From Candidatus Babeliales bacterium (GTDB taxonomy: Bacteria > Babelota > Babeliae > Babelales > JBFXEV01), in assembly GCA_963716425.1 (NCBI GenBank), contig OY970310.1, positions 1,539,577 to 1,603,576 of the forward strand: a DNA stretch of 64,000 bases. The letters run 5' to 3'. The position numbers and the translations under genes were made by a program. Shown here piece by piece: positions 8,769-39,687 of the stretch; positions within the stretch are counted from its first letter, which is position 1, and each line of letters opens with the position of its first letter. The notes beneath the pieces were generated by a model. The model did not search any database. It was given only the letters and a program-made list of their open reading frames with translations, and was not told the DNA's origin.

Positions 8769-8843
8769 TATTGAAGGCACCGAACATCCCGAGTGTTCTA
8801 CGTGGCATTAGCTAAGTAGCACATATCGGGGGATAATTTTTGT

Positions 8844-10075: not shown

Positions 10076-10861
10076 ATGATGAATAGGCTTTTTATAAATA
10101 CGTTTGATGAATTGGATGTATCAAAAATTAAGAATTTGCTAGAAGCTGGTGTTGCTGTTAATGCTAGAGATGAATATGATACTACTGCATTGCACGTGGC
10201 ATCCATCCAGGGTCGTAAAGAAATAGTTGAATTGCTATTACAGAATGGTGCAGATGTTCATGCAAAAGATAAGGATGATGAAACTGCATTATTGCAGGCC
10301 GCGGCTCATGGCCATACAGAAGTCGTTAGGGTATTATTGACACATGGCGCTGATGTTACTGTGCAAGACAAATATGGTTGGACGGTTTTGCATGAAGCAG
10401 CGTATAATGGCAGCAAAGAAACAGTTGGATTATTGCTTGCCCATGGCGCTGATGTGAATGCAAGAAACGATATTGGTGAAATAGCTTTGCACCGGGTTGC
10501 CCAAAAGGGTAATAAAGAAATGGTGGAATGGTTACTCGTCCATGGTGCCGATGTGAATGCTGAAAGTTTTGCTAAAACAGCCTTGCATATGGCAGCATTC
10601 CATGGCCATATTGAAGTTGTGGAATTTTTGTTGAAATTTGGTGTGGAGCAATCGATTTATATGGATATTTTTCCTGCTTTGCATTATGCGGCGTATAATG
10701 GATATAAAGAAATAGTTCAATTATTATTGACACATGGCGCTTATGTACATGCAAAAAATAAATTAGATAAAACAGCGCGTATGATTGCACTCGAGGAAGG
10801 GCATACCGAAATTGCACAGTTGCTTGAGCAGTATGAGCAGAAAAGGCCTCTCTTTCGTTGA
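10076..10861 (+). CDS. ankyrin-repeat protein (about 7 repeats), no leader peptide
   Basis: Repeated TALH.AA..GH.E.V..LL..GADVNA units; AGGAG RBS. Confidence 0.85.
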   Translation: MMNRLFINTFDELDVSKIKNLLEAGVAVNARDEYDTTALHVASIQGRKEIVELLLQNGADVHAKDKDDETALLQAAAHGHTEVVRVLLTHGADVTVQDKYGWTVLHEAAYNGSKETVGLLLAHGADVNARNDIGEIALHRVAQKGNKEMVEWLLVHGADVNAESFAKTALHMAAFHGHIEVVEFLLKFGVEQSIYMDIFPALHYAAYNGYKEIVQLLLTHGAYVHAKNKLDKTARMIALEEGHTEIAQLLEQYEQKRPLFR

Positions 10862-11572: not shown

Positions 11573-12487
11573 CTACGTGGCTTGTGCATGCTCTTCTGCT
11601 GTATATGCAAATACCTCAATCATCATCTCTTTGAGCTGGCTTGCATGTAATGTTGCGATGTTGTTTTTAGAGATATTAAAATAAAGTACATCTATGAGAG
11701 CATCGCCCATAGCAAGGGAAGCCTTTGGAGTATCTTTGAACAAATTATTAAGAGATTGATTTCTTTCTCCTTCTTCTGAAAGGCTTACTTCCCCTTCGGC
11801 AATAGTAAATGAAATCAGCCGATGATGAACTATGGTTCCTTCAGGAGAGATTGTTACTTTAAATTCACCATCTCCTAAATAATCAGCTTCCCCCCATAGT
11901 AAATTCCTCTTCGATTTATGTGCTGCATGTTGGGCAAGTTCAGGATATTGCCGCATAATTTCTTCATAAAGTGAACCACTAGTCATGCATCTATGGTACG
12001 TTAATTGATCACCTTCAAGTAGCCAATTATTTTGGATCATGGTTGAATGCCTGTCTCCGCCAGCAATATATCCAATAACCCTTAACTGGTTTTCAGTGCG
12101 TCTGACTGTTGCAATGCAGGTGAACTTACCCATTGCATCTTCGGGCCAACTGTACCCATAAATAAGATGATCGCCATGCGCAAGTGTTCCAATATATTCC
12201 CATTGATATTCAGCATTGATATTAGGATCTTTTAAAATGCCTTTTTTCTCTTGATGTGCCAATTCATCTAAATCAATAGATGGATTCTCATCGCGGCCAA
12301 ATATCGGAATAAGTGCTTCCATGCAAGCATTAGAAATTGGTTTTCCTTGATATAATAAATCGCTTGGTAAATTGTGTGCGGGTTCAACTTCGCTATTTTC
12401 TTGTTTTTGAGAAGAACAGTTATTCAACAAAAGAATAGCCAAGCATGTCCAAAGGAAAGTGAATGTTTGTGAACTGTTTTGTGTCAT
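11573..12487 (-). CDS. hypothetical lipoprotein
   Basis: The internal Met gives MTQNSSQTFTFLWTCLAILLLNNCSSQ, a lipobox-like LLNNC. It is the last gene of a three-gene minus-strand unit. Confidence 0.5.
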   Translation of the reverse strand: MTQNSSQTFTFLWTCLAILLLNNCSSQKQENSEVEPAHNLPSDLLYQGKPISNACMEALIPIFGRDENPSIDLDELAHQEKKGILKDPNINAEYQWEYIGTLAHGDHLIYGYSWPEDAMGKFTCIATVRRTENQLRVIGYIAGGDRHSTMIQNNWLLEGDQLTYHRCMTSGSLYEEIMRQYPELAQHAAHKSKRNLLWGEADYLGDGEFKVTISPEGTIVHHRLISFTIAEGEVSLSEEGERNQSLNNLFKDTPKASLAMGDALIDVLYFNISKNNIATLHASQLKEMMIEVFAYTAEEHAQAT

Positions 12488-12512
12488 TAGAGTCCCTTTT
12501 TTTTCGTTTTGA

Positions 12513-12764
12513 TTATAGATTATCATCAACGTGCGCAAGCCAGTCTTGAAATTCTTGAGAATAAAAATGTCGCCACTCTTTTGGTGCATTCCATTGCACT
12601 AAATAATCTTGTTGTTCTTGGTAACTTAATTTTTCCCAAATTGGATACCATATATAATGATACCATATCTCTCCACTTTGGCGCCAAAAAGTGTCTCCCG
12701 GTGGATAACCTGGAAATTCAATCCAGGGTGGATTAATTACTTGATTGTTATTTTGTAGCGTCAT
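12513..12764 (-). CDS. small Trp/Tyr-rich hypothetical protein
   Basis: 83 aa with 9 Trp. Its start overlaps the upstream stop in an ATGA (12761-12764), suggesting translational coupling. Confidence 0.45.
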   Translation of the reverse strand: MTLQNNNQVINPPWIEFPGYPPGDTFWRQSGEIWYHYIWYPIWEKLSYQEQQDYLVQWNAPKEWRHFYSQEFQDWLAHVDDNL

Positions 12765-13177
12765 TCAACAACTCTTTGATAAGAAAAGGTATAGGAGCCG
12801 TTGTCATTCTGTATGAGTTCAATGACCTCAGGAGTATTCTTTCCTGTGATTTGTAAAAAGTCTTGAGCGAGTTTTATAAAATCATCTTGCTTGATTTTCA
12901 TGGAAACTGGCCGATCGCCCGGTATTTCTAGAATGAGCTCTTCTGCATCCTTTTTAAATAGAATGCCAAATAGGTCATCGGAGTCAAAGTAGTAGGCTTC
13001 TTGATCTTCTATTAAATTTTCAATTAAGCAAGCTAAACTGTCTGCGTATTTTTGATTTTCCTCAATAGCAATCAAAGCATATCCCAAAGGGCAGAGTCTG
13101 CTTTTCTCAGGAAAGACTCTTGATGATTCATTGTTGCAATGGTCAAAGGCATAGCTTACTAAATATATTTTTTGCAT
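12761..13177 (-). CDS. hypothetical acidic protein
   Basis: 138 aa ORF and first gene of the 13177->11573 unit; no family recognised. Confidence 0.45.
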   Translation of the reverse strand: MQKIYLVSYAFDHCNNESSRVFPEKSRLCPLGYALIAIEENQKYADSLACLIENLIEDQEAYYFDSDDLFGILFKKDAEELILEIPGDRPVSMKIKQDDFIKLAQDFLQITGKNTPEVIELIQNDNGSYTFSYQRVVE

Positions 13178-13420
13178 GAGGAATTATTCCTATGGAAAGT
13201 TGGGGTGTATTTATCAAACAGACACAGTATGTTTATCGATCATACCAAAATAGAGCACTTACACAATTGGATGGCCCGAGAGGGGATTGAGCGCCTTACA
13301 TGGAATCTGTTTATTTAGATATTGCAAGAGGTTATTATTTGTAACATACATAAGTTTGCGGAATATGGCCTTTCTAAAAGGGCGTTAAATGCGTCTTGTG
13401 AAAAAAATAGAGAGCGGATT

Positions 13421-17728: not shown

Positions 17729-18079
17729 TTAGTAGTTGCGAGCGTTTTTTGCGCCATTAGTGAAATCGTGCTGATTTGCTTCTTCTTCAGATGCAAATGT
17801 AGCGCAATTTGGTGGGCAAACCCAGTGGCAACGAACAATCTTTTGTTCTGTGCAAACCTTACGAGGTACGCCACAAACGATTGTCTTACAAACTGGTTTT
17901 TCTTCGCATTCTACCATGTCAGGCAACTTGTTCATTTCACAAGCTACTTCGCATTGTACTGGACATGGTGCTGCTACTCTTGGTTGTTCGTCGCATGAAC
18001 GACGACCACAGTGACGAGCTTCTGCTTCAACTGAAGCGAGGAGTGCAAGTACTGCTACTAGTGATAAAAGCTTTTTCAT
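17729..18079 (-). CDS. small secreted cysteine-rich protein
   Basis: Leader MKKLLSLVAVLALLASVEAEA, then 12 Cys in about 94 residues. Confidence 0.6.
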   Translation of the reverse strand: MKKLLSLVAVLALLASVEAEARHCGRRSCDEQPRVAAPCPVQCEVACEMNKLPDMVECEEKPVCKTIVCGVPRKVCTEQKIVRCHWVCPPNCATFASEEEANQHDFTNGAKNARNY

Positions 18080-18851
18080 GGCTTTCTCCTTTGATTATTG
18101 TTTCTACTATTTTCTACATTGACCATGGCGCTCATGTTCACTATCAATATCTCACAAATAGAATTAAAAATTCAAGGGTTTGATATTTTTTATATTAAAA
18201 TATGCATTAAATCGTGCTTTTCCTTCCTGGAAATGGGGGGCTATTAGACATGGTTTGCAATTAAAAATTATTAAATTTAGGGGTATTGGGGGGTATACTG
18301 ATTTTTGGGGTAGGATTGGATGAAAAAGGGTAGGGGGAGGTTTATTTAGAAGTGAGATGCTTACTTTTCTATTGTTTTCAGGTCATTTGTTTTGGGCATG
18401 TTTAAAGTACTTCGCGCCTGTTCCGCCTACTTTTATCCGGGCCTTCCGGCTCGGCAAACTGCGTCGGACTAGCGCCGGCTTGCTTTACTTGCTCGCACTT
18501 ACGATGATTCCGACACTCTAGCCTATACTAAAGCTACGACGGGCAAGCGGGGTGCCCTGTGCGCCGGAACCTTGGTGCGGAAAAATTATAAAATGAGTAA
18601 GGGTTCCAGGCGTAAATATGCATAAGTTGAAATTTCATAAAGATATTCATTAGCCGTTGAGCTGGAACCTGCAGATTTTCCAATGGAAAATCGATGGGCG
18701 AAGCACTCAACGCAAGATAAATAAGAACAGAGTTCTTATTTGTTCGTTTGGTTTCGAAAGGGCTTTGGACAAGTAAAGCCCTTCGCTTAGCCGAGCAGGC
18801 TCGCAGCGATTACATATGCTTAAAACAAACGGCCTCGGAAATGTTGATTAT

Positions 18852-20363
18852 CTATGCATATGAAAAACCTGCTTTTAGCCAAATAGTTCCCTGCTCGAGA
18901 GCTCTATTTGATATAGCGGAGAATTCTATAGAAGCACCAATACCCACAAATGGCTCTAGCGGATTATCACTCCAGAACTTGCTTGCATGCAAGAAAAGGG
19001 TATAAGAAACTGCAAGCGGATTTGCTGCAGAACGAAGATTGATATCTGCGGGAGTTAAAAATACGGTAAATGGATCATCAAAAAGATTGGCATTTTCGCC
19101 ATTAATACGCGTTGCACTTGCAGTTTGCGGTGTATTGCTGTCTGTGTTCCCTTGTATACCATAGATGCCTAGGGGCACAGCTCCGTCTCTGAGCGATATC
19201 CTTTCTCTTGAGCGTAGCCATGCATCAAGCCCAACGTTAAACTGCCAAGAACCCCAATCATAAGTGCCCATTATGGTGCCTTCCACTTCAGCACTTACTT
19301 TTACATTACAGTCGAGCGTAGTCACGCGGGGACCAAAAAGAATTTCTCCCGAGGCTGTGCCATCAGGGTTAAATCGTTTAAATAATAAGTATCTGCTACC
19401 AATACCATTACCGATAATATCAAAAGTGCGTCTTTGATGAGCACTAAATAAATAATAGTACCGTATATCAAATACCACATTCATGGCAGTATCTGCTTTG
19501 TCAAATACTTCATGAAAGCCATGGATGCCACCACCGAGTCCATTATGCTTGCCATTGCCTACTTGAGCATTAAAGAAGAAATGTGGTTCAATCCGTTTGC
19601 CAACAGGAGCAATATAATTGAGCTGTAGATCAATTTCCCAATCTGGTCTGCAAATAACTTCATAGCCAAGAGTAAGATACAGATCAGCAAGCCCAACTTC
19701 AGTGCGATGACCTTCAACAGTGGCAAATCTCATATCCTCAGTGACAGCAGGAAACACATTCTCATTAATCGTATCACCAACCCATGCGCGTAGTATTGAT
19801 TTCAAAAATGAATCAGCTGGCGCTGGATTTCCTAGTTTATCTGCATCTACGTTAGTACCGGCAGAAATAAACCGTTCACGCATTCTAAGATTCCAGCGGG
19901 ACCAGGTGATAGGAATATACGCTTCAAAATATAATCCTCTTGCGAATCTATTTAAGCTTATACGCGCTTGCATTTCAAGAACCATATTTTGGACAATTGG
20001 TTCAATAATCACGCTGCCTTGAAAATCATCATTGAGTAGAAAGTTCCGTGCAAATACGTCGGTACTTGGATCATTCAAGTTACCAAACATCATAGTATCA
20101 GTACCATTGAAAAATAAATATTGTTCAAGATTCCCATTCGAGAATGATTCAGAATAGGCTGGTGTAATACCAAAATAAAAGCAAGGAAATCCGGTAGTTT
20201 TATCACAGAAGTCATAGGGCTCCATGCCTACCCAATGGCGCGGATTATTAAGTCCTTGTGAGCGCATGGTAAATTGAGAACGCCCCGTAACGGCTTCTAA
20301 GTAGCTATTAAAACAAAAGACAATGCCCAAAATTATGAGTATGTTGGTCCGTTGTGCAAACAT
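18852..20363 (-). CDS. outer-membrane-type protein, family paralogue 1 (most diverged)
   Basis: ATG at 20363 with an AAGGAG RBS and leader MFAQRTNILIILGIVFCFNSYLEA. Shares GIGSRYLLFKRFN, GLADL..TLGY and the C-terminal ..EFSA..NRA...G.IWLKAGFSYA with the other four copies. Confidence 0.7.
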   Translation of the reverse strand: MFAQRTNILIILGIVFCFNSYLEAVTGRSQFTMRSQGLNNPRHWVGMEPYDFCDKTTGFPCFYFGITPAYSESFSNGNLEQYLFFNGTDTMMFGNLNDPSTDVFARNFLLNDDFQGSVIIEPIVQNMVLEMQARISLNRFARGLYFEAYIPITWSRWNLRMRERFISAGTNVDADKLGNPAPADSFLKSILRAWVGDTINENVFPAVTEDMRFATVEGHRTEVGLADLYLTLGYEVICRPDWEIDLQLNYIAPVGKRIEPHFFFNAQVGNGKHNGLGGGIHGFHEVFDKADTAMNVVFDIRYYYLFSAHQRRTFDIIGNGIGSRYLLFKRFNPDGTASGEILFGPRVTTLDCNVKVSAEVEGTIMGTYDWGSWQFNVGLDAWLRSRERISLRDGAVPLGIYGIQGNTDSNTPQTASATRINGENANLFDDPFTVFLTPADINLRSAANPLAVSYTLFLHASKFWSDNPLEPFVGIGASIEFSAISNRALEQGTIWLKAGFSYA

Positions 20364-20391
20364 GAGTACTATCTCTCCTTTAAACTTTTTA

Positions 20392-22107
20392 TTACGAATA
20401 CGCAAATCCTAACTTGCCCCAGATGCCCCATTGATCAAACGCATTGTTGCGTATGCCCGAGAATTCTACTTCACCACCAACTCCCATAAAGAAATCAAAG
20501 TTGCAACCTTCAAAGGTATAGCCAAGATGGGCAAAGAATTTATTGGTCAGAGCAGAAGGCGCTTCTGCAGCCCTTGCATCAAGATCATTGGTAGTAATAA
20601 ACACCGGTACTGCAGGACCAAGTACAGGGCCATCACCTAGAGCTGTACTATTGGTTCCATTAATGGTTACGGTGCTGTTGGTGCGATTTGCTGGAAGATT
20701 AGGATTAATCCCACCCGTTGGCAAGAAATTATCAATTGGTGTGCCGCCTAACAGTCCATACGTGTTTGGCGGAATGTGTCTAATGATTGTGATGCCTTCT
20801 CTGCTGCGGCCCCAAAGGTTATAGCCAATGTCAAGTGTGATATCGCACCATTGATAATCAAATATTAATACAAATTCGCCCATAACTTTAATTTTTACAT
20901 CAGCAGGAAGCGTTGTTACGTTTGGTCCTGGCACCAAAGTATCGGTAAAGTTTCCTGCGGCATTAAATTGTTTGAATAAAAGGTATCTGCTTCCAATGCC
21001 ATTTTTCTTTAAATCGAAAGTACGCACCTGTTTATTTTTGAGCAAACTATACACAACACCATCCGCCCAAAGACTAATCGAATGATCGCCACAGCCACAT
21101 GCGTCCCACAGCATAACGTGAGCCGACATGCCAGCACCAATTCCTACATGGTGTCCATTACCTACTATTGGTTCAAAAACAAATTCACCTTTTGGCGTAT
21201 TACCAGTTGGTGCCGTTACGCGAAATTCGAGCCCTAAATGTCCATTCTCGGTGCAAATATAATTTCTGCCAAGAACAAATTTAACATCTGCAATGCCGTG
21301 CTTTTTTTGCCTGCCGTTAATTTTGGCAAAACGCATAGGATCAATGGTGATGGCTTCCGTAAGATCTCCTGGCGGAGTTTCATTTGTGCTTACGAAATTG
21401 AGAACTCCATCTATTTCTCCCCTCCATGCTGCAATAATAGTATCCACTGGTGCAGGCGCGATAAATGGACTATTTCCTGCGGAAGCTGCATTAATGCTAA
21501 TGTTGCCGGGTTGTTCAGCGTCAAACTCTTCTAAATTCATGTTCCATCGCGTCCATACAACAGGAGCACCCACTTCAAAGTAGAGACCACAATTTACTGT
21601 TTCTAAATTAAGCCGCGCATTAAAATCAAGAATTAAGTTGGTAACTTTGGGTTTCAACTCAACACGTCCGGAAAATGTACTTGGAAGTAAAAAGTTTTCT
21701 GCAAGTACGTCTGTGTTTTCCGGGCTATAGGCAGGGTTAGTTGCCAAACTTCCCCTGAAGCGCATTATATTTGTTTTCGGTGGTCGTACATTTTCTATGG
21801 ATTCACAATCACAAAAATCAATTGGCCTACGGAATGAAAAATAGCGACCAATCGCGTCAGGATTAAACGTTTCCGTCCATTCTGGTGTTATTGAGAAAAC
21901 AAGGCCGTTATCACAATCCCGGCAGGCGTAAAGTTCTTGTAATTCACCCACAAGCCTGCGTGCAAGGTTATCACCTTGTGATCTGGCTGCAAAAAATGGT
22001 TTGCCATAGGTTTCTCTTTTTCCAAAAGGAGTTCTTTCCATTGCCGTTATACTCAATGTGAGAGTGAGCATGGTGCAAAGAAGAAGTTGTTGCATATGTT
22101 TGTTCAT
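20392..22107 (-). CDS. outer-membrane-type protein, family paralogue 2
   Basis: Leader plus YGKPFFAARSQGDNLARRLVGE, ENFLLPSTFSG, FEPIVGNGHH, GIGSRYLLFKQFN and a C-terminal WGIWGKLGFAYS. Confidence 0.75.
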   Translation of the reverse strand: MNKHMQQLLLCTMLTLTLSITAMERTPFGKRETYGKPFFAARSQGDNLARRLVGELQELYACRDCDNGLVFSITPEWTETFNPDAIGRYFSFRRPIDFCDCESIENVRPPKTNIMRFRGSLATNPAYSPENTDVLAENFLLPSTFSGRVELKPKVTNLILDFNARLNLETVNCGLYFEVGAPVVWTRWNMNLEEFDAEQPGNISINAASAGNSPFIAPAPVDTIIAAWRGEIDGVLNFVSTNETPPGDLTEAITIDPMRFAKINGRQKKHGIADVKFVLGRNYICTENGHLGLEFRVTAPTGNTPKGEFVFEPIVGNGHHVGIGAGMSAHVMLWDACGCGDHSISLWADGVVYSLLKNKQVRTFDLKKNGIGSRYLLFKQFNAAGNFTDTLVPGPNVTTLPADVKIKVMGEFVLIFDYQWCDITLDIGYNLWGRSREGITIIRHIPPNTYGLLGGTPIDNFLPTGGINPNLPANRTNSTVTINGTNSTALGDGPVLGPAVPVFITTNDLDARAAEAPSALTNKFFAHLGYTFEGCNFDFFMGVGGEVEFSGIRNNAFDQWGIWGKLGFAYS

Positions 22108-22201
22108 TGAGTTCCTTTATTTATAAACTTTTTTTATTCGCCGTCGCCTTCTCCCGAAAGCTATGGCGCACACGCCGTAGCTCCATAGGAGCAAAGGCGG
22201 A

Positions 22202-23827
22202 TTAAAAGAATGCCAACCCCACTTTGCCCCATATTCCCCACTGGGTGAGCGCATTATTTTCTTTTCCTGAAAATTCCACTTGACCACCAGCTCCAATAAA
22301 TGGTGTGCAATGTTTTCGCGGCCACGCATAACAAACATGTGCAAAGAGCATATGTGATAATGCAGCGGGAGATTCAGCACTTGCCACATCAATATTGTTG
22401 TTTGAGATGAAGCTTGGGCTGGGCGTATCAAATTCTTGGTTAGTAGCAGATATAAAATTTTCTCCGTTGATGAGCACTTGGCTGTTGGTGCGATTTGCAG
22501 CCCCAGGAATAAGATTATCAATTGGCGTGCCGCCCCAAATACCAAAAGTTGCTTGTTCAATTTCTTGGGTCAGTTTAATTTTCTCTTTTTCTCTTCCCCA
22601 TGCACTATACCCAAAATCGATGGTTAATCCTTTACGTTGATAATCGACAAGAAGCACTGCTTGGCCAATAAGACCTATGCCCACTTTTGCATCAAGCGTG
22701 GTTATGTTTGGGCCTGGCACAAAACGATTTGCAAAATTGCCGGCTTCATTAAATTGCTTGAAGAGTAAATATCTGCTACCAACACCATTATTAAGTAAAT
22801 CAAATGTTCTTCTTTGTTTTGTATTGAATGCATAATACAATGCACTATCAAACCAAATACTCCATGAACGGTCGCATCCGTTACTCCAGACTTTGCCGTG
22901 AGCACTCAAGCCACCACCAATTTGAAGATGATGACCACCACCAATAATGGGCTCAAACATATACACTGCTTCTGGACGGTTGCCCGTAGGCACGGTGACT
23001 CGTATATTAAAATCAAGATGATATTTTGGTTTGCATAACACGTTGTACCCCAGCACCAATTCAATATCTGCAACACCAGATTTTGTCTTTTTTCCATCAA
23101 TCAGACCAAATCTCATATTTTCTATGCCAATTGCGATCGGCGCCACACCGGGAGCGGTAAAGGTAAATTCTTGGGTAACATGTGCTCCGGTGAATGCTTC
23201 AGTAATTGTGGTAAAGGGTGCAGTAGTTACATATGGTCCCTTAATAGGATTATTAGAAGCAAGAATTGCAATATCTGTTCCTGCAAAGGCGGGTGTTTCT
23301 TCGTGGAGTGCAACATGTGAACGAGTCCAGGCAATGGGTAGGCCAACTTCTACATAAAGACCAGGTAATCGATTATATAAATTGAGCCGAAAGTTAATGT
23401 CGGTAATAAAGTTTTCTATATGGGGAAATAGAGTGACCGCGCCGGAAAAGGTGCTTGGGAGCAAAAAATTTTCAGCAAGAATATCCGTGTTTGTAGGGCT
23501 AAATGGAGGATTTTGCGCCATGCTCCCCCTAAAAGTCATGGTATTAGATTCGTTATTGAAACCATTATGAATAGAAAAATAATTGCCAAGCCTGTTTCGG
23601 TGGAAATTTTGGCTCCATTCTGGGGTAATTGAGAAGATACCATTTTTATGTTTTGAACCGCAATGGAGCAGTTCATTTACTTCCCCCACGAGCCTACGTG
23701 CTAAATTGTTTCCTTGGCTTCTACTTGCAAAAAATGGTTTGCCAAATGTACATTCAGTGTTTGGAATGTGCGCAAAAAGTGCATGTATTATATAAAATAG
23801 GACATATCTTTTTTTGAGTTGGTTCAT
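22202..23827 (-). CDS. outer-membrane-type protein, family paralogue 3
   Basis: The same conserved blocks; the C-terminus is WGIWGKVGLAFF. Confidence 0.75.
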   Translation of the reverse strand: MNQLKKRYVLFYIIHALFAHIPNTECTFGKPFFASRSQGNNLARRLVGEVNELLHCGSKHKNGIFSITPEWSQNFHRNRLGNYFSIHNGFNNESNTMTFRGSMAQNPPFSPTNTDILAENFLLPSTFSGAVTLFPHIENFITDINFRLNLYNRLPGLYVEVGLPIAWTRSHVALHEETPAFAGTDIAILASNNPIKGPYVTTAPFTTITEAFTGAHVTQEFTFTAPGVAPIAIGIENMRFGLIDGKKTKSGVADIELVLGYNVLCKPKYHLDFNIRVTVPTGNRPEAVYMFEPIIGGGHHLQIGGGLSAHGKVWSNGCDRSWSIWFDSALYYAFNTKQRRTFDLLNNGVGSRYLLFKQFNEAGNFANRFVPGPNITTLDAKVGIGLIGQAVLLVDYQRKGLTIDFGYSAWGREKEKIKLTQEIEQATFGIWGGTPIDNLIPGAANRTNSQVLINGENFISATNQEFDTPSPSFISNNNIDVASAESPAALSHMLFAHVCYAWPRKHCTPFIGAGGQVEFSGKENNALTQWGIWGKVGLAFF

Positions 23828-23952
23828 TTTCTACTGCCTTACCTAATTCAAGATCTTCAAGCTTGCTCTGCTTAGTGTACCGTAAATATTTTTTTTCAAA
23901 AAGGTCCTGAAGAAATTTCTGAGCACGTTTGTAAAACTCTGGCGCGTTTGGA

Positions 23953-25650
23953 TTATGGGAAAGCAAATCCTCCTTTTACCCATATGCCCCATTGGTTGAG
24001 TGCATGATTATTATGGTCCGAGAATTCTACTAGGCCACCAAGTCCAATAAAGGGAGCACCACGACAGCTTTCAAATATATATCCAAGATGCGCAAAAAAT
24101 GTGTTTGAAATAGCAGATGGAGCTTGTGCTGATGTTGCATCAAGATGAGCCGTTGTTATAAATAGTGGCATTGCTGGTGTTCCGCCAGGTCCTCCATCAC
24201 CAAACGGTGAACTGTTTTCACCATTTATTCTTATTGCACTGTTAGTGCGATTTGCGGGCATGTTGGGATCCAATGTACCGTTTGCTAAAAAGTTATCAAT
24301 CGGCGTTCCGCCCAGTAATCCATATGTGTTGGTTGGAATGTTGCCGGAAATTTTGATATGTTCTTTACTGCGTCCCCAGAGATTATAACCTATATCAAAA
24401 GTAACAGGTGCCCATTTAAAGTTAAGTAATAGTACAAACTCCCCCATAACTTTAATTTTCACATGAGCTGGTAGCGTGGTAACATTTGGTCCTGGTACAA
24501 AAGTATTAGTAAAATTACCTGCTGCATCAAATTGTTTAAAGAGTAGATAGCGGCTACCTATTCCATTTTCTTGTATATCAAAAGTTCGTGTGTGTTTTGC
24601 CTTACACAAATGATATATAGTACTATCAATCCATACATTTATTGAACGATCTGCGCATGCGTGATGCCAGAGCTCAGTATGGCATTCTAAACCGGCTCCT
24701 ACTGCCCAATGCCGCCCATTGCCTACAATAGGTTCAAATACAAATTCACCTTTGGGCCTGGTACCAACAGGTGCAGTAATGCGGAAGTTAATTCCCAAAT
24801 GTTTATCTTGAGTACAAATAGCATTGTAACCAAAAACAAATTTGAGATCCGCCACACCACTCTTTGTTTGTGTGCCTTTGATTTTAGCAAAACGCATTGG
24901 TTCAACTGTTATTGGTATTAGAAGAGGATTAGGAACAATCGCTGTATTGGCACTGGTGAAATTGAGAACGCCATAATCGCGTCCCTGGAATGCATCAATT
25001 ATGCTACTCGTTGGTGCTGGAGTAACAAAAGGGTTAATCCGAGGGCTTGATGCATTAATAATGATATTGCCCGGTTGATTGAGAGGTCGAGCTTTTAAAC
25101 GCACATGTGAGCTTGTCCATACTATAGGCATACCAATTTCAACATATAAACCTTTACATGCGTTATCTAAATTTATGCGTGAATTAATATCAAGAATAAA
25201 ATTTTTCAAGTGAGGCTTTATTTTCACAATACCATCAAAGGTGCTTGCAAGTAAGAAATTGTCCGCAAGAACCGTGCGATCTTCGGGAATGCCCATTTGG
25301 CTTCCTTGAAACCGCATGCTATTTTTGTGGTGCTTTATATGAGTAAGTATGAGATTAGGATTCTCAGTGCCCTTGCATCGTTTATGCCGTAAGGAAAAAT
25401 ATCTGCCAAGGCCCTTAGTATCAAACGTTTGATTCCATTCAGGGGTCACCGAGATGACACCATTGACGCATTTAAGACAAGGAACCAGTTCATTCACTTC
25501 GCCCACAAGCCTGCGTGCAAGGTTATCTCCCTGAGAACGCGCAGCAAAAAATGGTTTGCCAAATGCATGCTTTGTATGAGAATGCAACGCGCAAGTAAGA
25601 ATAATAAGAGCAACAATAGGTAAGAATTTTTTAGAAATGGTTTGCAACAT
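23953..25650 (-). CDS. outer-membrane-type protein, family paralogue 4
   Basis: The same conserved blocks; the C-terminus is WGIWVKGGFAFP. Confidence 0.75.
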   Translation of the reverse strand: MLQTISKKFLPIVALIILTCALHSHTKHAFGKPFFAARSQGDNLARRLVGEVNELVPCLKCVNGVISVTPEWNQTFDTKGLGRYFSLRHKRCKGTENPNLILTHIKHHKNSMRFQGSQMGIPEDRTVLADNFLLASTFDGIVKIKPHLKNFILDINSRINLDNACKGLYVEIGMPIVWTSSHVRLKARPLNQPGNIIINASSPRINPFVTPAPTSSIIDAFQGRDYGVLNFTSANTAIVPNPLLIPITVEPMRFAKIKGTQTKSGVADLKFVFGYNAICTQDKHLGINFRITAPVGTRPKGEFVFEPIVGNGRHWAVGAGLECHTELWHHACADRSINVWIDSTIYHLCKAKHTRTFDIQENGIGSRYLLFKQFDAAGNFTNTFVPGPNVTTLPAHVKIKVMGEFVLLLNFKWAPVTFDIGYNLWGRSKEHIKISGNIPTNTYGLLGGTPIDNFLANGTLDPNMPANRTNSAIRINGENSSPFGDGGPGGTPAMPLFITTAHLDATSAQAPSAISNTFFAHLGYIFESCRGAPFIGLGGLVEFSDHNNHALNQWGIWVKGGFAFP

Positions 25651-25826
25651 AGATACCCCTCTTTAAAATAATCAAATTTAGTAGATAGTTTGTTTGTTAA
25701 TCATTGTACCTTAAATATTTTTTTTCAATATGCACCCATTAGTGTGCTATTGCAACAAAAAAAATTCTGTTTATGATCTTAAATAACATACTTAGCATAG
25801 TTTAACACAGCAAAAGGAGTTGTATT

Positions 25827-27809
25827 ATGAAGAAACAGTATATATATACGATATTTATTTTTTTCTTAATTTTTTTGTATGCCGATACGTTGTATGCTGC
25901 TGTTAATTTTTCTCCTTGCAGCAAATTTTTTCAACATGATATTCAATTGCAGCTTTCAGATGCTAATGGTTTTCCCGTGCCTGATACAGAGTTTTGGGTC
26001 ACCTTGAATATTTTCAAGGAGGGTCCACGTGTAACCATTCAGTTTCCTGTGATTAATTTCCAAACGGGGCAAGTATCTCCTGATGATCCAGGTGTACCCT
26101 TGGTACCAGGTGGCTATCTGTATACTAGTGATGGCTACTTACCCAAAGAGATTCGCCCCAATGATCTGGTACCTCTTTCTTTTTTGGCACCTTCCGATAA
26201 TGGATTGAGCTTGCCGTTTTCATTTACTCAAACGCCTGCTACGTTACCTGTGCCGCCTTCTGGATATATTTTGCAAGTGACTCAAGCGGGCGCATTGCAA
26301 GTGCAAGGTGTGGGTACTTTTGGCAATGTTATTCCTCCAGGCAAGCAAATTATTTTTCCTACTGCGATTTCTTATTTAGTACAATTTGATGATGCATTGC
26401 AAAAAAATTATGTATTAAGTACTGGTGCAACTAACATTACGCAGTTTACTAATCCTTTTTTTGCGGATCATGGTTTTAGAGATTCTCATGTTAATGATGC
26501 TTTTAATTCTGTTCTGGCATGGGCGTGGGCTGATAACTCTAATATTAGAGATAAAACAAATAATACGCTTAATGCGATGGTGGTTATTGGGAGTGTGAAT
26601 GGAAATTCACTTGTTTTTAGTAAACCAATTCAATTGACTAATCTTCTACCAAATCAGATGGTCTGGGACACTGCGGTAGCGATTAACCGAACAAATAGCA
26701 GTAATATTGTAGTTTCATTTCAAGTTATTGATGCAACAGTTCCTTCTCCAAGGCCTGATATAACACCAGTACGAGTGCCATGGCGATCAGTTTCTTTTGA
26801 TGGCGGCGTGACCTGGGAGACTGGACCTATATTAAATATCGTTGAGCCTCGAGGTGGTGCAATAATTTCAGGCGACAATCGGGGTGTTTCATCAGATATG
26901 TTTGGCAACATTTGGTATTTGACCACTCAATTTTTTGATGCTTCTTTTAATACTATTAACCAACCAATATTTGCAGTAAGTACCGATGGAGGAGTCACCT
27001 TTAATGTAGTATTTATTGCACCTCCTGTTATGAACGTATCTGATTTGTATGATTATCCGCAGTATTGTTTTGGTGGTTTTGGTGATGATGGGCAATATGG
27101 ACTATGGTTTACCGCAGATTATTTTACTGGTGGTAATATCATTCCTTTCGTAGGATTTATTCCCATTACAGAAACAGGTATAGGAATGGGAATAACAGCA
27201 TTTCTTAATAAACTGATTAACACGCAGCTTCTTCCTACCATAACGGCTTCTGAGGATGGGAGAGTTTGGGTCGAATCGTTAACAGAAGCAGGTGCTACGT
27301 ATATTGCTCCGGTTGTTACTAGATTTAAATCACCTGATGGTATTGATGCCAATTATGCAGGGCCTTGGGACATGGGATATGTAAATCAATTAGATACGGA
27401 TTTACTTGCAAATCAAATTTCATTTCCCAAGCGAGGATATATTCCTGCATCAGTGCAAAGTAATATATATGACGAAAGTCGTAAAGCATTATATGCAATG
27501 TATGCAGCGCAAGTTCCTGATTATGCACAAAACATGCAAATCTTCTTTGTGATCTCACGTGATAATGGCATGACCTGGTCACAGCCAATACAAATTGCCA
27601 CTACCAATTTTGCAAATCGGGGATATCAATCAATGGCTTTAGATTCAGTAACAAGAAATTTGGTATTTGGTTGGTATGATGGGCGTAATGATATAAGTTA
27701 TCAATCAGTAGAATATTTTGCAGCAGTTATTACTGCCGAGCAATTGGATAGAATAGTGAATCGTATTGCTTTAACCGATCCATTGTTTGAAGTACCTTCA
27801 GCTGCTTAA
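25827..27809 (+). CDS. secreted BNR/Asp-box repeat (sialidase-fold-like beta-propeller) protein
   Basis: Leader MKKQYIYTIFIFFLIFLYADTLYA. Asp-boxes SFDGGVTW (aa 323), STDGGVTF (aa 385) and SRDNGMTW (aa 577). No FRIP motif was seen. Confidence 0.6.
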   Translation: MKKQYIYTIFIFFLIFLYADTLYAAVNFSPCSKFFQHDIQLQLSDANGFPVPDTEFWVTLNIFKEGPRVTIQFPVINFQTGQVSPDDPGVPLVPGGYLYTSDGYLPKEIRPNDLVPLSFLAPSDNGLSLPFSFTQTPATLPVPPSGYILQVTQAGALQVQGVGTFGNVIPPGKQIIFPTAISYLVQFDDALQKNYVLSTGATNITQFTNPFFADHGFRDSHVNDAFNSVLAWAWADNSNIRDKTNNTLNAMVVIGSVNGNSLVFSKPIQLTNLLPNQMVWDTAVAINRTNSSNIVVSFQVIDATVPSPRPDITPVRVPWRSVSFDGGVTWETGPILNIVEPRGGAIISGDNRGVSSDMFGNIWYLTTQFFDASFNTINQPIFAVSTDGGVTFNVVFIAPPVMNVSDLYDYPQYCFGGFGDDGQYGLWFTADYFTGGNIIPFVGFIPITETGIGMGITAFLNKLINTQLLPTITASEDGRVWVESLTEAGATYIAPVVTRFKSPDGIDANYAGPWDMGYVNQLDTDLLANQISFPKRGYIPASVQSNIYDESRKALYAMYAAQVPDYAQNMQIFFVISRDNGMTWSQPIQIATTNFANRGYQSMALDSVTRNLVFGWYDGRNDISYQSVEYFAAVITAEQLDRIVNRIALTDPLFEVPSAA

Positions 27810-27821
27810 GAATTGTTTATT

Positions 27822-27854
27822 AAAAAAGGCCTGGACAATTTCCAGGCCTTTTTT
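27822..27854. terminator. bidirectional terminator hairpin between convergent genes
   Basis: aaaaaaggcctgga / tccaggcctttttt, with A- and T-runs on both sides. Confidence 0.7.
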
Positions 27855-27879
27855 AATGTACTTATTTTTGTGTTGGATA

Positions 27880-29577
27880 TTATGAGAATGCAAATCCAGT
27901 TTTAATCCATACACTCCATTGATCAAATGCTTTATTGTTTCTACCAGAGAATTCAGCTTCACCACCAAAACCAAAGAATGGTGAATAATCACAGCCTTCC
28001 CACGTATAGCCAAGATGGCCAAATACTTTGTGTGATAATGCTGATGGAGCTTCTGCTGATTCTCTATTAAGCATCTCAGTAGTTGCAAATACTTGATTTG
28101 GAACGCCAGCAATAGTAGTAAAGCCATCACCAATGGCAGTTGCGCCCGCACCATCAATCATTACTAGACTATTGGTGAGACTTGCAGATCCTGGAATGAT
28201 ATTATCAATTGGAGTGCCACCTAAGAGACCATAGGTATTGGGTGGAATTTCACCAACGATAGTAATATGTTCTTTTGAACGACCCCAAATGCCGTAACCA
28301 GCATCAAAGGTAAAGCCGCAGCGTTGGTAATCAAACATTAAAATTGCTTCACCAGAAATATTTATTTTAACTTTTGATTCAACGGTGTTTACATTCGGCC
28401 CGGGAACAAACGTATTTGCAAATACAAAGGGGATAGGTGGCGTTGCACCAGGTGTACCTGGCGTAAACAATTTGTAGAGCAAGTAACGGCTACCAATACC
28501 ATTGGCAGTTAAATCAAACGTACGTTTTTGGCGAGCATTAAACTCATGGTAGAATGCGCTATCAAACCAGAGGCTGAATGATTGGTCACAGCCATTTTCC
28601 CATAAAATTGCATGACCATTCAGGCCACCACCAAGTTTTACATGATGACCATTACCAACAATTGGTTCAAACATAAATTCAGCATCAGGGCGCGTGCCAG
28701 TTGGGGCAGTAACGCGAAGATTTGCACCAAGATGGTAGCAATCATTGCAGAAGAAATTATAACCTAATACAAATTCTAAGTCCGCAACACCAGTTTTACT
28801 CTTGTGGCCGCGAATACGAGCATATTTCATTTCCTCAATAGTGATATTGATTGGATTTGGTGCGGGTGCAGGAACTGGCAGAGGTGAAGTAAAGTTTACG
28901 GTGCCATTAAACTCACCTTTCCATGCTTCAATTATAGAGTGAAGTGGTGTTGGCCATGAAAATGGCGTTACGCCAATAGGAGCACCAGTTGGGTTACTTG
29001 ATGCTGGAATACTAAAATTAGTGCCCGCATTTATAACTCGTTCTTCAAGTCCCATGCTCCAACGAGTCCAGTTGACCGGTATGTCTACTTCAAAATAAAG
29101 ACCACACAACCATTCGTCTAAATTAAGACGGAAGTTAATGTCTGCAATAAAGTTTTTCACGTTTGGTCGTAAGGTCACCACGCCATCAAAATCACTGGGC
29201 AGTAAAAAGTTTTCTGCGCGCACATCAGTGTTTGCTGCCGTTGCGCCCGGCACAAGGCTGCCACGGAAACTCATCATATTTGCTTCTACAGCTGATGGGT
29301 TGCGAAATGAGAAATAATCTCCCAATTGGTGCCGATCAAATGTTTGGCTCCATTGTGGAATAACTGCTAATACACCATTAATGCAATCAAAATCGCATCG
29401 GTATAATTCATGCGCGTCTCCAACTAATCTTCGCGCAAGATTTTGGCCTTGAGAACGTCCTTGGAAATATGGTTTTCCAAAAGCATCATGTTCTCTGTCA
29501 TGGCGGTCTTGGGCGTATGCTGTAAGTGCGCACATGAGTAATGCTATACTTAACAGTTTTTTGAATCTTTGTTTCAT
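27880..29577 (-). CDS. outer-membrane-type protein, family paralogue 5
   Basis: Leader ...LLMCALTAYAQD, FGKPYFQGRSQGQNLARRLVGD and the family blocks; the C-terminus is WSVWIKTGFAFS. Confidence 0.75.
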   Translation of the reverse strand: MKQRFKKLLSIALLMCALTAYAQDRHDREHDAFGKPYFQGRSQGQNLARRLVGDAHELYRCDFDCINGVLAVIPQWSQTFDRHQLGDYFSFRNPSAVEANMMSFRGSLVPGATAANTDVRAENFLLPSDFDGVVTLRPNVKNFIADINFRLNLDEWLCGLYFEVDIPVNWTRWSMGLEERVINAGTNFSIPASSNPTGAPIGVTPFSWPTPLHSIIEAWKGEFNGTVNFTSPLPVPAPAPNPINITIEEMKYARIRGHKSKTGVADLEFVLGYNFFCNDCYHLGANLRVTAPTGTRPDAEFMFEPIVGNGHHVKLGGGLNGHAILWENGCDQSFSLWFDSAFYHEFNARQKRTFDLTANGIGSRYLLYKLFTPGTPGATPPIPFVFANTFVPGPNVNTVESKVKINISGEAILMFDYQRCGFTFDAGYGIWGRSKEHITIVGEIPPNTYGLLGGTPIDNIIPGSASLTNSLVMIDGAGATAIGDGFTTIAGVPNQVFATTEMLNRESAEAPSALSHKVFGHLGYTWEGCDYSPFFGFGGEAEFSGRNNKAFDQWSVWIKTGFAFS

Positions 29578-38916: not shown

Positions 38917-39687
38917 ATGAATAAAAAATATTTAGTAGCTTTAGTTTGTATATGTCTCTTTATGATGTCAGCCGTGATTGATGCAATGGAATCAGTAAAA
39001 ACAGCTGACGAGCTTGGCTTAACCCCACATAAATCGAATCAAATATATCTAGCAATAATTAAGGACAATGACGAATGGCTAAGAGAGTTGCTCAATGAAT
39101 CTCCTGCAATTCTTAAGATGAAATTTGGTCCTCAGCATGAGAATGTAACGCCGCTCCAATTGGCTTTGTTCAATGGAAAAATAAAAGCTGCGAAGTTATT
39201 GCTCGAAAAAGGTGCTGATAGAAGTATGCCGGGTAGTTCTCTCTTGGTGCAAACTGCAGCTTTTAATCAAGTGCCTAGTATGCAGTTGCTTGTAGAGAAT
39301 GGTTTTGATCTAAATGAAAAGATTTCTGATCAAACTCCATTGCTGGTCGCAATAGCAAAGAATGCAGTTGAGGCAACTGACTTCTTGCTTGAACATGGTG
39401 CGAAAACTGATCCAATTACGATTGGTATAGCAACAATGCCTTTATTGCATTTAGCAGTATATTTTGGTGCTGAAGGTGCTGTGAAATTATTAGTTGAAAA
39501 ATATAAATATGAGGTGAATGCTAAAATATTTGTTAACAATCGGCCAGTTTCACCTAATGATTTGGCGGTTATGGGAGCTCACTGGCGTATTGCTCAATAC
39601 TTAAAAGAGCATGGAGCCGATACCAAAAGCCATTATCATTTTATGAACATGATAGTAGCAGAAGACCCTCATATTAGCAGAAAGTAG
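38917..39687 (+). CDS. secreted ankyrin-repeat protein
   Basis: Leader MNKKYLVALVCICLFMMSAVIDAME; ANK units (TPLQLALFNGKIKAAKLLLEKGAD, TPLLVAIAKNAVEATDFLLEHGA). Confidence 0.75.
   Translation: MNKKYLVALVCICLFMMSAVIDAMESVKTADELGLTPHKSNQIYLAIIKDNDEWLRELLNESPAILKMKFGPQHENVTPLQLALFNGKIKAAKLLLEKGADRSMPGSSLLVQTAAFNQVPSMQLLVENGFDLNEKISDQTPLLVAIAKNAVEATDFLLEHGAKTDPITIGIATMPLLHLAVYFGAEGAVKLLVEKYKYEVNAKIFVNNRPVSPNDLAVMGAHWRIAQYLKEHGADTKSHYHFMNMIVAEDPHISRK

What the first reader, a model, noticed from the sequence alone, without database searches (positions are those of the whole stretch)
18852..29577. Array of five paralogous ~500-570 aa outer-membrane-type proteins of an unrecognised family
Four tandem minus-strand genes span 18852-25650, with spacers of 28, 94 and 125 bp. 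A fifth copy (27880-29577) lies beyond an interposed plus-strand gene.

The copies share these blocks: FGKPFFAARSQGDNLARRLVGE, ENFLLPSTFSG, GVADL.FVLGYN, FEPIVGNGHH, GIGSRYLLFKQFN, WGRS.E, YGLLGGTPIDN, NRTNS and a C-terminal EFSG..NNA..QWGIWGK.GFAF. Between the blocks they differ by substitutions and indels, which are candidate surface loops. Paralogue 1 is the most diverged.

Leaders, alternating hydrophobic segments and an aromatic C-terminal signature suggest beta-barrels. I cannot assign them to any named porin, autotransporter or MOMP family from memory.

Tandem OMP paralogue arrays are known from other obligate intracellular bacteria, such as Ehrlichia p28/OMP-1 and Anaplasma msp2/p44. 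There they support differential or variable surface expression, and the same could apply here.
Basis: partly seen in the sequence, partly recalled or inferred. Interest (0 to 1): 0.7.

Follow-up and report, generated by a model that had tools for sequence, protein, structure and literature searches.

The report
Unnamed outer-membrane barrel family of Dependentiae
The five genes are old, diverged copies of an unnamed outer-membrane beta-barrel protein family that sits as a tandem array at the same chromosomal spot across the host-dependent phylum Dependentiae (TM6); it is probably that phylum's main outer-membrane channel or surface protein and not an antigen-switching system.

Summary
There are five intact minus-strand paralogues: p1 18852-20363, p2 20392-22107, p3 22202-23827, p4 23953-25650 and p5 27880-29577. 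They are 33-58% identical and share the quoted blocks.

No Pfam, NCBIfam or PDB sequence or profile match exists. An AlphaFold2 model of p2 (pLDDT 92.8) matches only outer-membrane barrels in Foldseek. The best matches are the 12-stranded plugged barrels FapF (TM 0.61-0.68) and COG4313.

Signal peptides, 12 amphipathic strands, short periplasmic turns and a C-terminal aromatic signal fit a BAM-assembled barrel. All indels fall in four long predicted outer loops. Loop 3 (FEPIVGNGHH) is fixed in length and is the family hallmark.

The organism is a Dependentiae/Babeliales bacterium from soil. The family has about 3,000 clusters at 50% identity, nearly all unnamed. It forms arrays of 1-8 copies in one conserved slot (rsmH-mur-ftsK-uppP | array | fabD-gltX) in 49 of 68 related loci.

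The window's five copies are a lineage-specific re-expansion, and four of them have 1:1 orthologues in the nearest relative. Synonymous sites are near saturation, no conversion tracts or cassettes are present, and other samples are 99.96-99.97% identical. An msp2/p44-type mechanism is therefore not supported. Function (channel, adhesin or export pore) is inferred, not shown.

The parts
27880..29577 (-). Paralogue p5 (565 aa). First gene of the array, with its own upstream region. Orthologue in L004 at 6152-7936.
27818..27858 (.). 18-bp-stem hairpin flanked by A and T runs, between the convergent ends of p5 and the interposed gene. Probable bidirectional terminator.
25827..27809 (+). Interposed gene, not a family member. 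It encodes a secreted sialidase-fold (BNR/Asp-box) beta-propeller protein of 660 aa. It is a lineage-specific insertion that is absent from the array in L004 and in the other related loci.
23953..25650 (-). Paralogue p4 (565 aa). Closest to p2 (58% identity). It is the extra copy with no orthologue in L004.
25705..25728 (-). 24-nt element TTGAAAAAAAATATTTAAGGTACA, 55-78 nt upstream of the p4 start. Candidate promoter or operator.
   Evidence: 2 matches in the window, 0 expected by chance
23876..23899 (-). Second copy of the 24-nt element (23/24 identical), 49-72 nt upstream of the p3 start. Its core AAATATTTACGGTACA is conserved, followed by AT, upstream of the p3 orthologue in L004.
22202..23827 (-). 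Paralogue p3 (541 aa). Orthologue in L004 at 8084-9730.
20392..22107 (-). Paralogue p2 (571 aa), the copy that was modelled. Predicted layout: signal peptide 1-22; conserved N-terminal segment 23-67; 12 strands (68-80, 154-167, 175-189, 274-286, 289-300, 322-335, 342-363, 399-420, 423-441, 519-532, 537-550, 559-571); long outer loops L1 81-153, L2 190-273, L4 364-398 and L5 442-518; hallmark loop L3 301-321.
18852..20363 (-). Paralogue p1 (503 aa from the ATG at 20363). Most diverged copy, with the L3 motif changed to FNAQVGNGKH. It lies 28 bp after p2 and is probably co-transcribed with it. Orthologue in L004 at 11756-13267.
17729..18079 (-). 116-aa protein with a signal peptide and 12 cysteines, on the same strand downstream of the array. 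It is conserved in that position in L004 (59% identity) and L024. Possible envelope partner; its function is unknown.

Best explanation
The five genes encode diverged paralogues of a Dependentiae-specific family of 12-stranded outer-membrane beta-barrel proteins.

Proposed mechanism. Each protein is exported by Sec through a cleavable leader. BAM inserts it into the outer membrane using a C-terminal K-G-G-x-x-F(-x) signal. Five tight periplasmic turns join the 12 amphipathic strands, and about 45% of the mature chain forms four long extracellular loops. I infer that two elements line or occlude the polar lumen and gate a narrow, solute-selective channel, as in the closest folds (FapF, COG4313, FadL). 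These are the conserved 45-residue N-terminal segment (FGKPFFxxRSQGxNLARRLVGE) and the invariant-length loop 3 (FEPIVGNGHH).

Evolutionary setting. The array occupies an ancestral envelope locus between ftsK-uppP and fabD-gltX that is kept across the phylum. In this lineage a single gene re-expanded to four or five copies. These copies have since been maintained as separate orthologous lines, and at least p5, p4 and p3 have their own upstream regions. I read the copies as subfunctionalised channels or surface proteins, with different loops and hence different solutes or host contacts. I do not read them as a recombining antigen repertoire.

Shown: paralogy, distribution, conserved locus, predicted fold and age of the copies. 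Inferred: outer-membrane location, plug or gate, channel function and separate regulation.
For: Fold and topology:
- The AF2 model of p2 with a 96-sequence alignment has pLDDT 92.8 and pTM 0.89 and is almost all beta.
- Foldseek against the PDB returns 60 hits at E<=1e-3, and those listed are OM barrels. The top hits are FapF (E 1e-9, TM by target 0.61-0.68) and COG4313 4rl8 (0.54). The 14- to 18-stranded barrels score lower: OmpG 0.44, FadL 0.30-0.32, OprD 0.22.
- FapF and COG4313 are 12-stranded barrels with an N-terminal element in the lumen (PMC5557850, PMC4493636).
- All 12 predicted strands show dyad hydrophobic alternation of 2.6-5.4 KD units, against a loop 90th percentile of 1.98.
- Strands and turns have fixed length in 96 homologues. 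All length variation is in L1, L2, L4, L5 and L6. L3 is always 21 aa and is the most conserved segment.
- 208 of 213 members end in an aromatic residue at the last or penultimate position.
- Two of 74 members give weak Pfam hits to Phenol_MetA_deg, which is the COG4313 family (E 0.0012), independently echoing the fold match.

Distribution:
- The family has 3,017 clusters at 50% identity with E<=1e-3.
- All named sources are Dependentiae, Babeliales or TM6.
- Tandem arrays of up to 8 copies occur in most related loci.
- The same flanking genes occur in 49 of 68 related loci.

Age of the copies:
- The window copies plus four L004 copies form one clade, and four of the window copies have 1:1 orthologues.
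- No conversion tracts are present.

Regulation and envelope context:
- A conserved 24-nt element lies upstream of p3 and p4.
- Electron microscopy shows inner and outer membranes in a cultured Dependentiae member (PMC6561590).
- A BamA COG is listed for Babela.
Against: - Model coordinates could not be inspected. Barrel closure, strand count and the position of the N-terminal segment and L3 rest on the secondary-structure string, pLDDT and Foldseek scores.
- There are no expression, localisation or transport data for any member, and no RNA run holds the locus.
- Plugged 12-stranded barrels are poor general porins, so a 'main porin' role is uncertain.
- Many conserved polar residues (R42, R50, E312, H320, R362, D365, S373, R374, D426, R434, E548, K565) could equally mark an active site or a binding site.
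- The family fails every sequence-level membership test for FapF, COG4313 and FadL.
- Copies elsewhere in the 1.87-Mb genome could not be counted.
Confidence: 0.65

Rival explanations
1. Surface adhesins or host-recognition proteins. The barrel is mainly an anchor. The four large, fast-evolving outer loops bind protist host surfaces or vacuole components, and the paralogues widen or tune host range.
For: About 45% of the mature chain lies in predicted extracellular loops that carry all the indels. Between orthologues the long loops are 47-65% identical against 65-82% for the strands. Independent lineage-specific expansions occur across the phylum. The organism has a host-associated gene set with ankyrin-repeat proteins.
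Against: The locus is ancestral and sits among housekeeping envelope genes in nearly all lineages. The strongest conservation is in L3, L4 and the N-terminal segment, which suggests a conserved internal mechanism more than a binding surface. This reading is not exclusive of a channel role.
Confidence: 0.2
2. Polypeptide export pores. Like FapF and autotransporter translocators, the plugged 12-stranded barrels open to pass unfolded Sec-exported proteins, such as the many leader-bearing effectors of Dependentiae, across the outer membrane.
For: FapF is the best structural match (E 1e-9). Autotransporter barrels (EstA, EspP, AIDA-I) are also hit. Babela encodes 79 ankyrin-repeat proteins with a predicted signal peptide that are thought to be secreted into the host (PMC4378268).
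Against: There is no FapF-type periplasmic coiled coil, and the N-terminal segment has only two short helices. No fap-like or passenger genes lie in or beside any array. Foldseek similarity among 12-stranded barrels is generic.
Confidence: 0.1
3. A recombining or switching antigen repertoire like Anaplasma msp2/p44 or Ehrlichia p28/OMP-1. One copy is expressed at a time, and variants are made by gene conversion between copies.
For: The genes form a tandem array of OMP paralogues in a host-dependent bacterium. The loops are variable. At least p3, p4 and p5 have separate upstream regions.
Against: Nucleotide identity between copies is 47-63%, third-position identity is 35-45% and the longest exact shared run is 26 nt. 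There are no truncated cassettes or pseudogenes. Four of the five copies have 1:1 orthologues in L004. Other samples are 99.96-99.97% identical, and three of the four SNPs seen are synonymous. No Pfam Surface_Ag_2 match is found.
Confidence: 0.04
4. Outer-membrane enzymes (lipase, protease or lipid-modifying, like OMPLA, OmpT or PagL). The conserved His, Ser, Asp and Arg residues would form an active site.
For: Nearly invariant H320, S373, D365, R374, E312 and N317 lie in loops L3 and L4. OmpT and Pla appear among the Foldseek hits (E about 1e-4).
Against: TM scores to OmpT and Pla are low (0.26-0.35). No sequence match to any enzyme family is found. Copy p1 has altered the L3 motif yet is conserved in the relative.
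Confidence: 0.05

Closest known systems
FapF (Pseudomonas functional-amyloid transporter; PDB 5O65, 5O67, 5O68)
   Same: It is the best structural match (Foldseek E 1e-9, TM by target 0.61-0.68). [quoted passage not shown]
   Different: There is no sequence or profile similarity. The window proteins have no periplasmic coiled-coil domain and no fap operon partners. They are about twice the size of the barrel domain because of four long outer loops.
COG4313 / Pfam PF13557 Phenol_MetA_deg channels (Pput2725, PDB 4RL8; SphA, TcpY)
   Same: It is a 12-stranded barrel with the N-terminus folded into the lumen. Foldseek gives E 2.7e-5 and TM 0.54. Two of 74 family members give weak PF13557 hits (E 0.0012).
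   Different: None of the five window copies reaches even E<=1 against PF13557. COG4313 proteins are about 270-300 aa with short loops, and their N-terminal insert is about 14 residues, against about 45 here. They are implicated in uptake of hydrophobic molecules (PMC4493636), which has not been shown here.
FadL / TodX family (Pfam PF03349 Toluene_X)
   Same: It is a barrel plugged by an N-terminal hatch of about 40 residues. Foldseek hits are at E 4e-6 to 3e-4.
   Different: FadL has 14 strands. TM scores are only 0.30-0.32, and there is no Pfam match.
Anaplasmataceae OMP arrays (Ehrlichia p28/OMP-1, Anaplasma msp2/p44; Pfam PF01617)
   Same: Both are tandem arrays of paralogous outer-membrane barrels with variable surface loops in host-dependent bacteria.
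   Different: It is an unrelated family with smaller barrels. The defining msp2/p44 feature, conversion from cassettes into an expression site, is absent here. The copies here are ancient orthologous lines.
Chlamydiae MOMP-like and Pom families, with cysteine-rich envelope partners
   Same: Both are phylum-restricted major OMP candidates in intracellular bacteria. In this clade a small cysteine-rich secreted protein is encoded next to the array. From my own knowledge, this recalls OmcA/OmcB with MOMP.
   Different: There is no sequence or Pfam match to PF01308. The barrels here are 12-stranded instead of porin-sized. The cysteine-rich link is only positional and is confined to a few genomes.

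Membership tests
Bacterial outer-membrane beta-barrel proteins (BAM substrates, generic) | N-terminal Sec signal peptide | tested here: met
   All five copies start with a basic n-region, a hydrophobic h-region of about 12-18 residues and a small-residue c-region. AF2 models residues 2-25 as a lone helix followed by a low-pLDDT linker. No SignalP run was available.
Bacterial outer-membrane beta-barrel proteins (BAM substrates, generic) | Even number of amphipathic antiparallel strands forming a closed barrel | tested here: inconclusive
   There are 12 long strands joined by five 2-7-residue turns. All 12 show dyad hydrophobicity. All significant Foldseek hits are OM barrels.
Bacterial outer-membrane beta-barrel proteins (BAM substrates, generic) | C-terminal beta-signal ending in an aromatic residue | tested here: met
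   208 of 213 members have F, Y or W at the last (80) or penultimate (128) position after K-G-G-x-x. The window copies end GFAYS, GFAFP, GLAFF, GFAFS and GFSYA.
FapF amyloid transporter family | 12-stranded barrel fold with a helical plug | tested here: inconclusive
   The fold match has TM 0.61-0.68. A conserved, confidently modelled N-terminal segment (pLDDT 88-95) precedes strand 1. Its position in the lumen was not verified.
FapF amyloid transporter family | Periplasmic N-terminal coiled-coil trimerisation domain and location in a fapA-F operon | tested here: not met
   Only about 45 residues with two 4-5-residue helices lie between the leader and strand 1. The neighbours are more barrels, uppP, ftsK, fabD and gltX.
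FapF amyloid transporter family | Detectable sequence homology | tested here: not met
   Profile searches with two alignments against all PDB sequences, which include FapF, find nothing at E<=10 apart from one spurious coiled-coil hit.
COG4313 / PF13557 Phenol_MetA_deg | Match to the Pfam model at or above its gathering score | tested here: not met
   None of the 5 window copies hits at E<=1. Only 2 of 74 diverse members hit, with a best E of 0.0012. A profile-profile (HHpred) test could not be run.
FadL / PF03349 Toluene_X | 14-stranded barrel and a match to the Pfam model | tested here: not met
   There is no Pfam hit. TM is 0.30-0.32. The model has 12 strands.
Anaplasmataceae Msp2/P44/OMP-1 (PF01617) | Match to the Pfam model | tested here: not met
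   No Pfam family matches at E<=1.
Anaplasmataceae Msp2/P44/OMP-1 (PF01617) | Variation by conversion between copies or cassettes (near-identical flanks, truncated donor copies) | tested here: not met
   The longest exact shared run is 26 nt, third-position identity is 35-45% and all copies are full length. Other samples are 99.96-99.97% identical.
Chlamydial MOMP (PF01308) and other named porin or autotransporter Pfam families | Match to a Pfam or NCBIfam model | tested here: not met
   No family matches any of the five copies.

The most novel reading that the evidence does not exclude
This phylum-wide family is a new class of gated 12-stranded outer-membrane translocon. Dependentiae lack recognisable OM tethers, and no porin family of theirs appears in the papers I read. 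They could use this translocon either to export their many Sec-dependent effectors into the host (FapF- or autotransporter-like) or to import host lipids and other amphipathic molecules (COG4313- or FadL-like). The tandem paralogues would provide different cargo specificities.
Probability: 0.15. Interest if true: 0.8.

Novelty: new variant of a known kind. Interest (0 to 1): 0.55.

Why it matters
Dependentiae (TM6) are a widespread phylum of obligate parasites of protists, and their envelope is almost uncharacterised. A survey found none of the four known outer-membrane tethering systems in them (bioRxiv 10.1101/2021.05.31.446380). The genome papers I read on Babela, Chromulinavorax and TM6 comparative genomics describe no porin or major OMP family.

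This family has about 3,000 sequence clusters and no Pfam or NCBIfam model. It occupies a conserved envelope locus and expands repeatedly in tandem. It is therefore the obvious candidate for the phylum's principal outer-membrane protein, and so for nutrient uptake, host contact and possible surface antigens.

Naming and modelling the family would improve annotation of thousands of 'hypothetical proteins'. It would also give a concrete target for experiments in the few cultured members.

Tried and rejected
- Pfam and NCBIfam scans of the five copies at E<=1 found nothing.
- A Pfam scan of 74 diverse members gave only stray weak hits: PF13557 twice, MipA twice.
- Profile searches of PDB sequences with two alignments found nothing.
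- The first Pfam-by-alignment attempt exceeded the residue limit.
- The gene-conversion search (codon alignment, sliding identity, longest exact runs) found no tracts.
- The repeat finder found only diverged coding blocks.
- The RNA-run search returned none, and the DNA runs are only soil and peat metagenomes. Expression therefore could not be tested.
- Rfam on the whole window and on the 772-bp gene-free stretch downstream of p1 found only a tRNA elsewhere.
- Literature searches for a described Dependentiae OMP or porin family found none. [quoted passage not shown]
- A 14-strand topology, with residues 234-255 as an extra hairpin, was considered and rejected. That segment is deleted in p1 and shortened in p3, and it varies in length across the family.
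- A functional link between the array and the interposed sialidase-fold gene was rejected. That gene is absent beside the arrays in the other related loci.
Full report
**Observation**

The window holds five intact minus-strand ORFs at 18852-20405, 20392-22107, 22202-23827, 23953-25650 and 27880-29577. For the first, the mechanical ORF begins at a TTG. An independent short-read contig calls the same 503-aa product.

Each copy finds the other four and nothing else in the window by tblastn (E 1e-72 to 0). The plus-strand gene 25827-27809 separates p5 from p4.

**Organism and distribution**

Homologues are all unnamed 'hypothetical proteins' from Candidatus Dependentiae/Babeliales (TM6) assemblies. 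They include Vermiphilus pyriformis / TM6SC1 and strain Noda2021. One carries only an automatic UniProt name ('Bacterial surface antigen (D15) domain-containing').

A profile search of 1.84 billion cluster representatives finds 3,017 clusters at E<=1e-3 and 2,097 at E<=1e-30. In one-genome-per-species contigs, 68 loci were recovered. All those with an informative label are Dependentiae, Babeliales or TM6, and some MAGs are labelled only 'bacterium' or 'uncultured Pseudomonadota'.

The nearest relative (L004, a Babeliales MAG) is about 60% identical in protein and about 81% in flanking DNA. The window sequence itself recurs in soil and peat metagenomes. The rest of the window fits a host-associated Dependentiae genome, with several ankyrin-repeat proteins among housekeeping genes.

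**No named family**

None of the five proteins matches any Pfam or NCBIfam model at E<=1. Profiles from 96 and 74 homologues find no PDB sequence. Scanning 74 diverse members one by one gives only stray weak hits. Two are to PF13557 Phenol_MetA_deg (best E 0.0012) and two to MipA.

**Fold**

AlphaFold2 on p2 with the 96-sequence alignment gives mean pLDDT 92.8 and pTM 0.89, almost entirely beta. Foldseek against the PDB returns 60 matches at E<=1e-3, and those listed are outer-membrane barrels.
- The top 17 hits are chains of FapF (E 1e-9 to 1e-6; TM normalised by target 0.61-0.68).
- Next come FadL homologues, the COG4313 channel 4RL8 (TM 0.54), CymA, autotransporter barrels, PorB, OmpT/Pla, OprD and OmpG.
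- Barrels with 14-18 strands fit worse: OmpG 0.44, FadL 0.30-0.32, OprD 0.22.

FapF is a 12-stranded plugged barrel (PMC5557850). COG4313 is a 12-stranded barrel whose N-terminus occludes the lumen (PMC4493636). That the weak Pfam echo is to the COG4313 family is an independent, modest corroboration.

**Topology**

The secondary-structure string has 12 long strands joined by five tight turns (168-174, 287-288, 336-341, 421-422, 533-536). This gives both termini on one side, as in BAM substrates.

All 12 strands show dyad hydrophobic alternation of 2.6-5.4 Kyte-Doolittle units in the family profile. In the long loops the 90th percentile is 1.98 and the maximum 2.78. The non-lipid face is strongly hydrophilic.

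In the five paralogues and in 96 homologues, strands and most turns have constant length. All indels fall in L1 (81-153), L2 (190-273), L4 (364-398), L5 (442-518) and, family-wide, L6.

L3 (301-321, FEPIVGNGHH) is always 21 residues. It is the most conserved segment (mean pairwise identity 0.63) and is the majority consensus in the four largest subfamilies (A-D), with close variants in most of the others.

The 45-residue segment between the leader and strand 1 is conserved (R42, Q44, N47, R50, G54). It is modelled with pLDDT 88-95 although it is mostly coil. By analogy with FapF, COG4313 and FadL, I infer that it sits in the lumen.

Of 213 full-length members, 208 end with an aromatic residue at the last or penultimate position after K-G-G-x-x. 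I could not inspect the coordinates. Barrel closure and the plug position are therefore inferences.

**The locus across the phylum**

In the related loci the family occurs as same-strand tandem arrays of up to 8 copies. Clustering 213 full-length members shows a canonical layout. Several long A-type copies (about 600-690 aa) are followed by one B-type copy (about 515-545 aa), and the B type occurs exactly once per locus in 36 loci.

The array sits in the same slot in 49 of 68 related loci, with rsmH, a Mur ligase, ftsK and uppP on one side and fabD, gltX and a TPR gene on the other. The locus is thus ancestral and sits among envelope and housekeeping genes. It is not an island. Its GC content (0.39-0.42) matches the window.

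**History of the five copies**

The window copies and the four copies of L004 form one clade of nine leaves. Four of the window copies (p5, p3, p2, p1) have 1:1 orthologues, in the same order as in L004. p4 and the interposed gene are extra in the window.

More distant members of the same subfamily (L005-L007, L010, L024) have a single gene in the slot. This lineage therefore re-expanded from one copy.

Between copies, nucleotide identity is 47-63%, third-position identity is 35-45% and the longest exact shared run is 26 nt. No conversion tracts or truncated cassettes are present. Between orthologues, strands are 65-82% identical, long loops 47-65% and L3 76-86%.

Contigs from two other samples are 99.96-99.97% identical over the array. 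In the short-read contig (L002), all four differences from the window lie in the OMP genes, three in p5 and one in p1, and three of the four are synonymous.

These results argue against an msp2/p44-type mechanism. They favour long-maintained, subfunctionalised paralogues.

**Expression signals**

A strong hairpin (27818-27858) separates p5 from the convergent interposed gene. A 24-nt element (TTGAAAAAAAATATTTA[A/C]GGTACA) occurs only upstream of p4 and p3, with 0 expected by chance. Its core survives upstream of the p3 orthologue in L004 although the coding DNA is saturated, which suggests a conserved promoter or operator.

p1 follows p2 by 28 bp with its own ribosome-binding site and is probably co-transcribed with it. 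No RNA data exist for the locus.

**Interpretation**

The best reading is a phylum-specific family of 12-stranded outer-membrane barrels with a conserved internal gate (N-terminal segment plus L3) and a large variable extracellular crown. It would serve as the main channel and surface protein of Dependentiae. The literature I could read describes no such family, and one survey reports that known OM tethers are undetectable in the phylum.

The rivals are an adhesin role for the loops, FapF-like polypeptide export, an outer-membrane enzyme and antigenic switching. They are weighed in the Rival explanations section. Only antigenic switching is substantially excluded.

**Side observations**
- The interposed gene encodes a secreted sialidase-fold propeller (pLDDT 89.8; top Foldseek hits are sialidases at E 5e-10). 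It belongs to a large unnamed multi-copy family that is not linked to the arrays elsewhere.
- A 116-aa secreted protein with 12 cysteines lies downstream of the array here and in two relatives.
- gyrA at 6070-8768 is broken into six collinear ORF pieces. This points to local indel errors or a pseudogene. The barrel genes are confirmed intact by independent contigs.

Noticed in passing
window 25827-27809 (+): The gene interposed in the array encodes a secreted 660-aa protein with BNR/Asp-box repeats. Its AF2 model (pLDDT 89.8) matches bacterial and human sialidases (E 5e-10 to 1e-7). It belongs to a large, unnamed, multi-copy family (218 hits at about 50-56% identity) and is not found beside the arrays in the other related loci. 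Catalytic residues were not checked.
   Followed up: partly
window 17729-18079 (-): A 116-aa protein with a signal peptide and 12 cysteines lies on the same strand downstream of the array. It is conserved in that position in L004 (13529-13876, 59% identity) and L024 (1772-1936). Only 5 homologues exist in the large protein database. It may be a disulfide-linked envelope partner.
   Followed up: partly
window 6070-8768 (+): gyrA is split into six collinear ORF fragments. Pfam DNA_topoisoIV positions 1-142, 135-214, 229-345 and 375-431 are followed by two fragments matching DNA_gyraseA_C. This implies about five frameshifts or stops. The cause is either local assembly indel errors or a pseudogene.
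   Followed up: partly
window 18080-18851: A 772-bp gene-free stretch with GC-rich segments lies between p1 and the cysteine-rich gene. The nearest relative has only about 260 bp there. No Rfam match is found at E<=1.
   Followed up: partly
window 23876-23899 and 25705-25728 (-): A 24-nt element is shared (23/24) by the upstream regions of p3 and p4 only. p4's coding sequence is closest to p2, not p3. The duplication that made p4 may therefore have joined a p2-like body to a p3-like upstream region, or the site is under strong selection.
   Followed up: partly
window 10076-10861, 38917-39687, 58838-59974 and 57418-58743: Several ankyrin-repeat proteins are scattered among housekeeping genes, as reported for other Dependentiae. 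The matches at 58838-59974 and 57418-58743 are weak and below Pfam's cut-off. This is consistent with a host-associated lifestyle.
   Followed up: no
related loci L011-L071 (e.g. L019 3659-11479, L058 5325-21619): In most Dependentiae the array has a fixed grammar. Several long A-type copies (about 600-690 aa) are followed by exactly one short B-type copy (about 520 aa) next to fabD-gltX. The window's clade lacks A-type copies at this locus and re-expanded the short type instead.
   Followed up: yes
L001 versus window 20345 and 30674: The ENA long contig differs from the window by small indels inside p1 and uppP, which shorten the called products to 471 and 297 aa. The short-read contig agrees with the window in p1 and does not cover uppP. 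The p1 indel at least is therefore probably an assembly error in that contig.
   Followed up: partly
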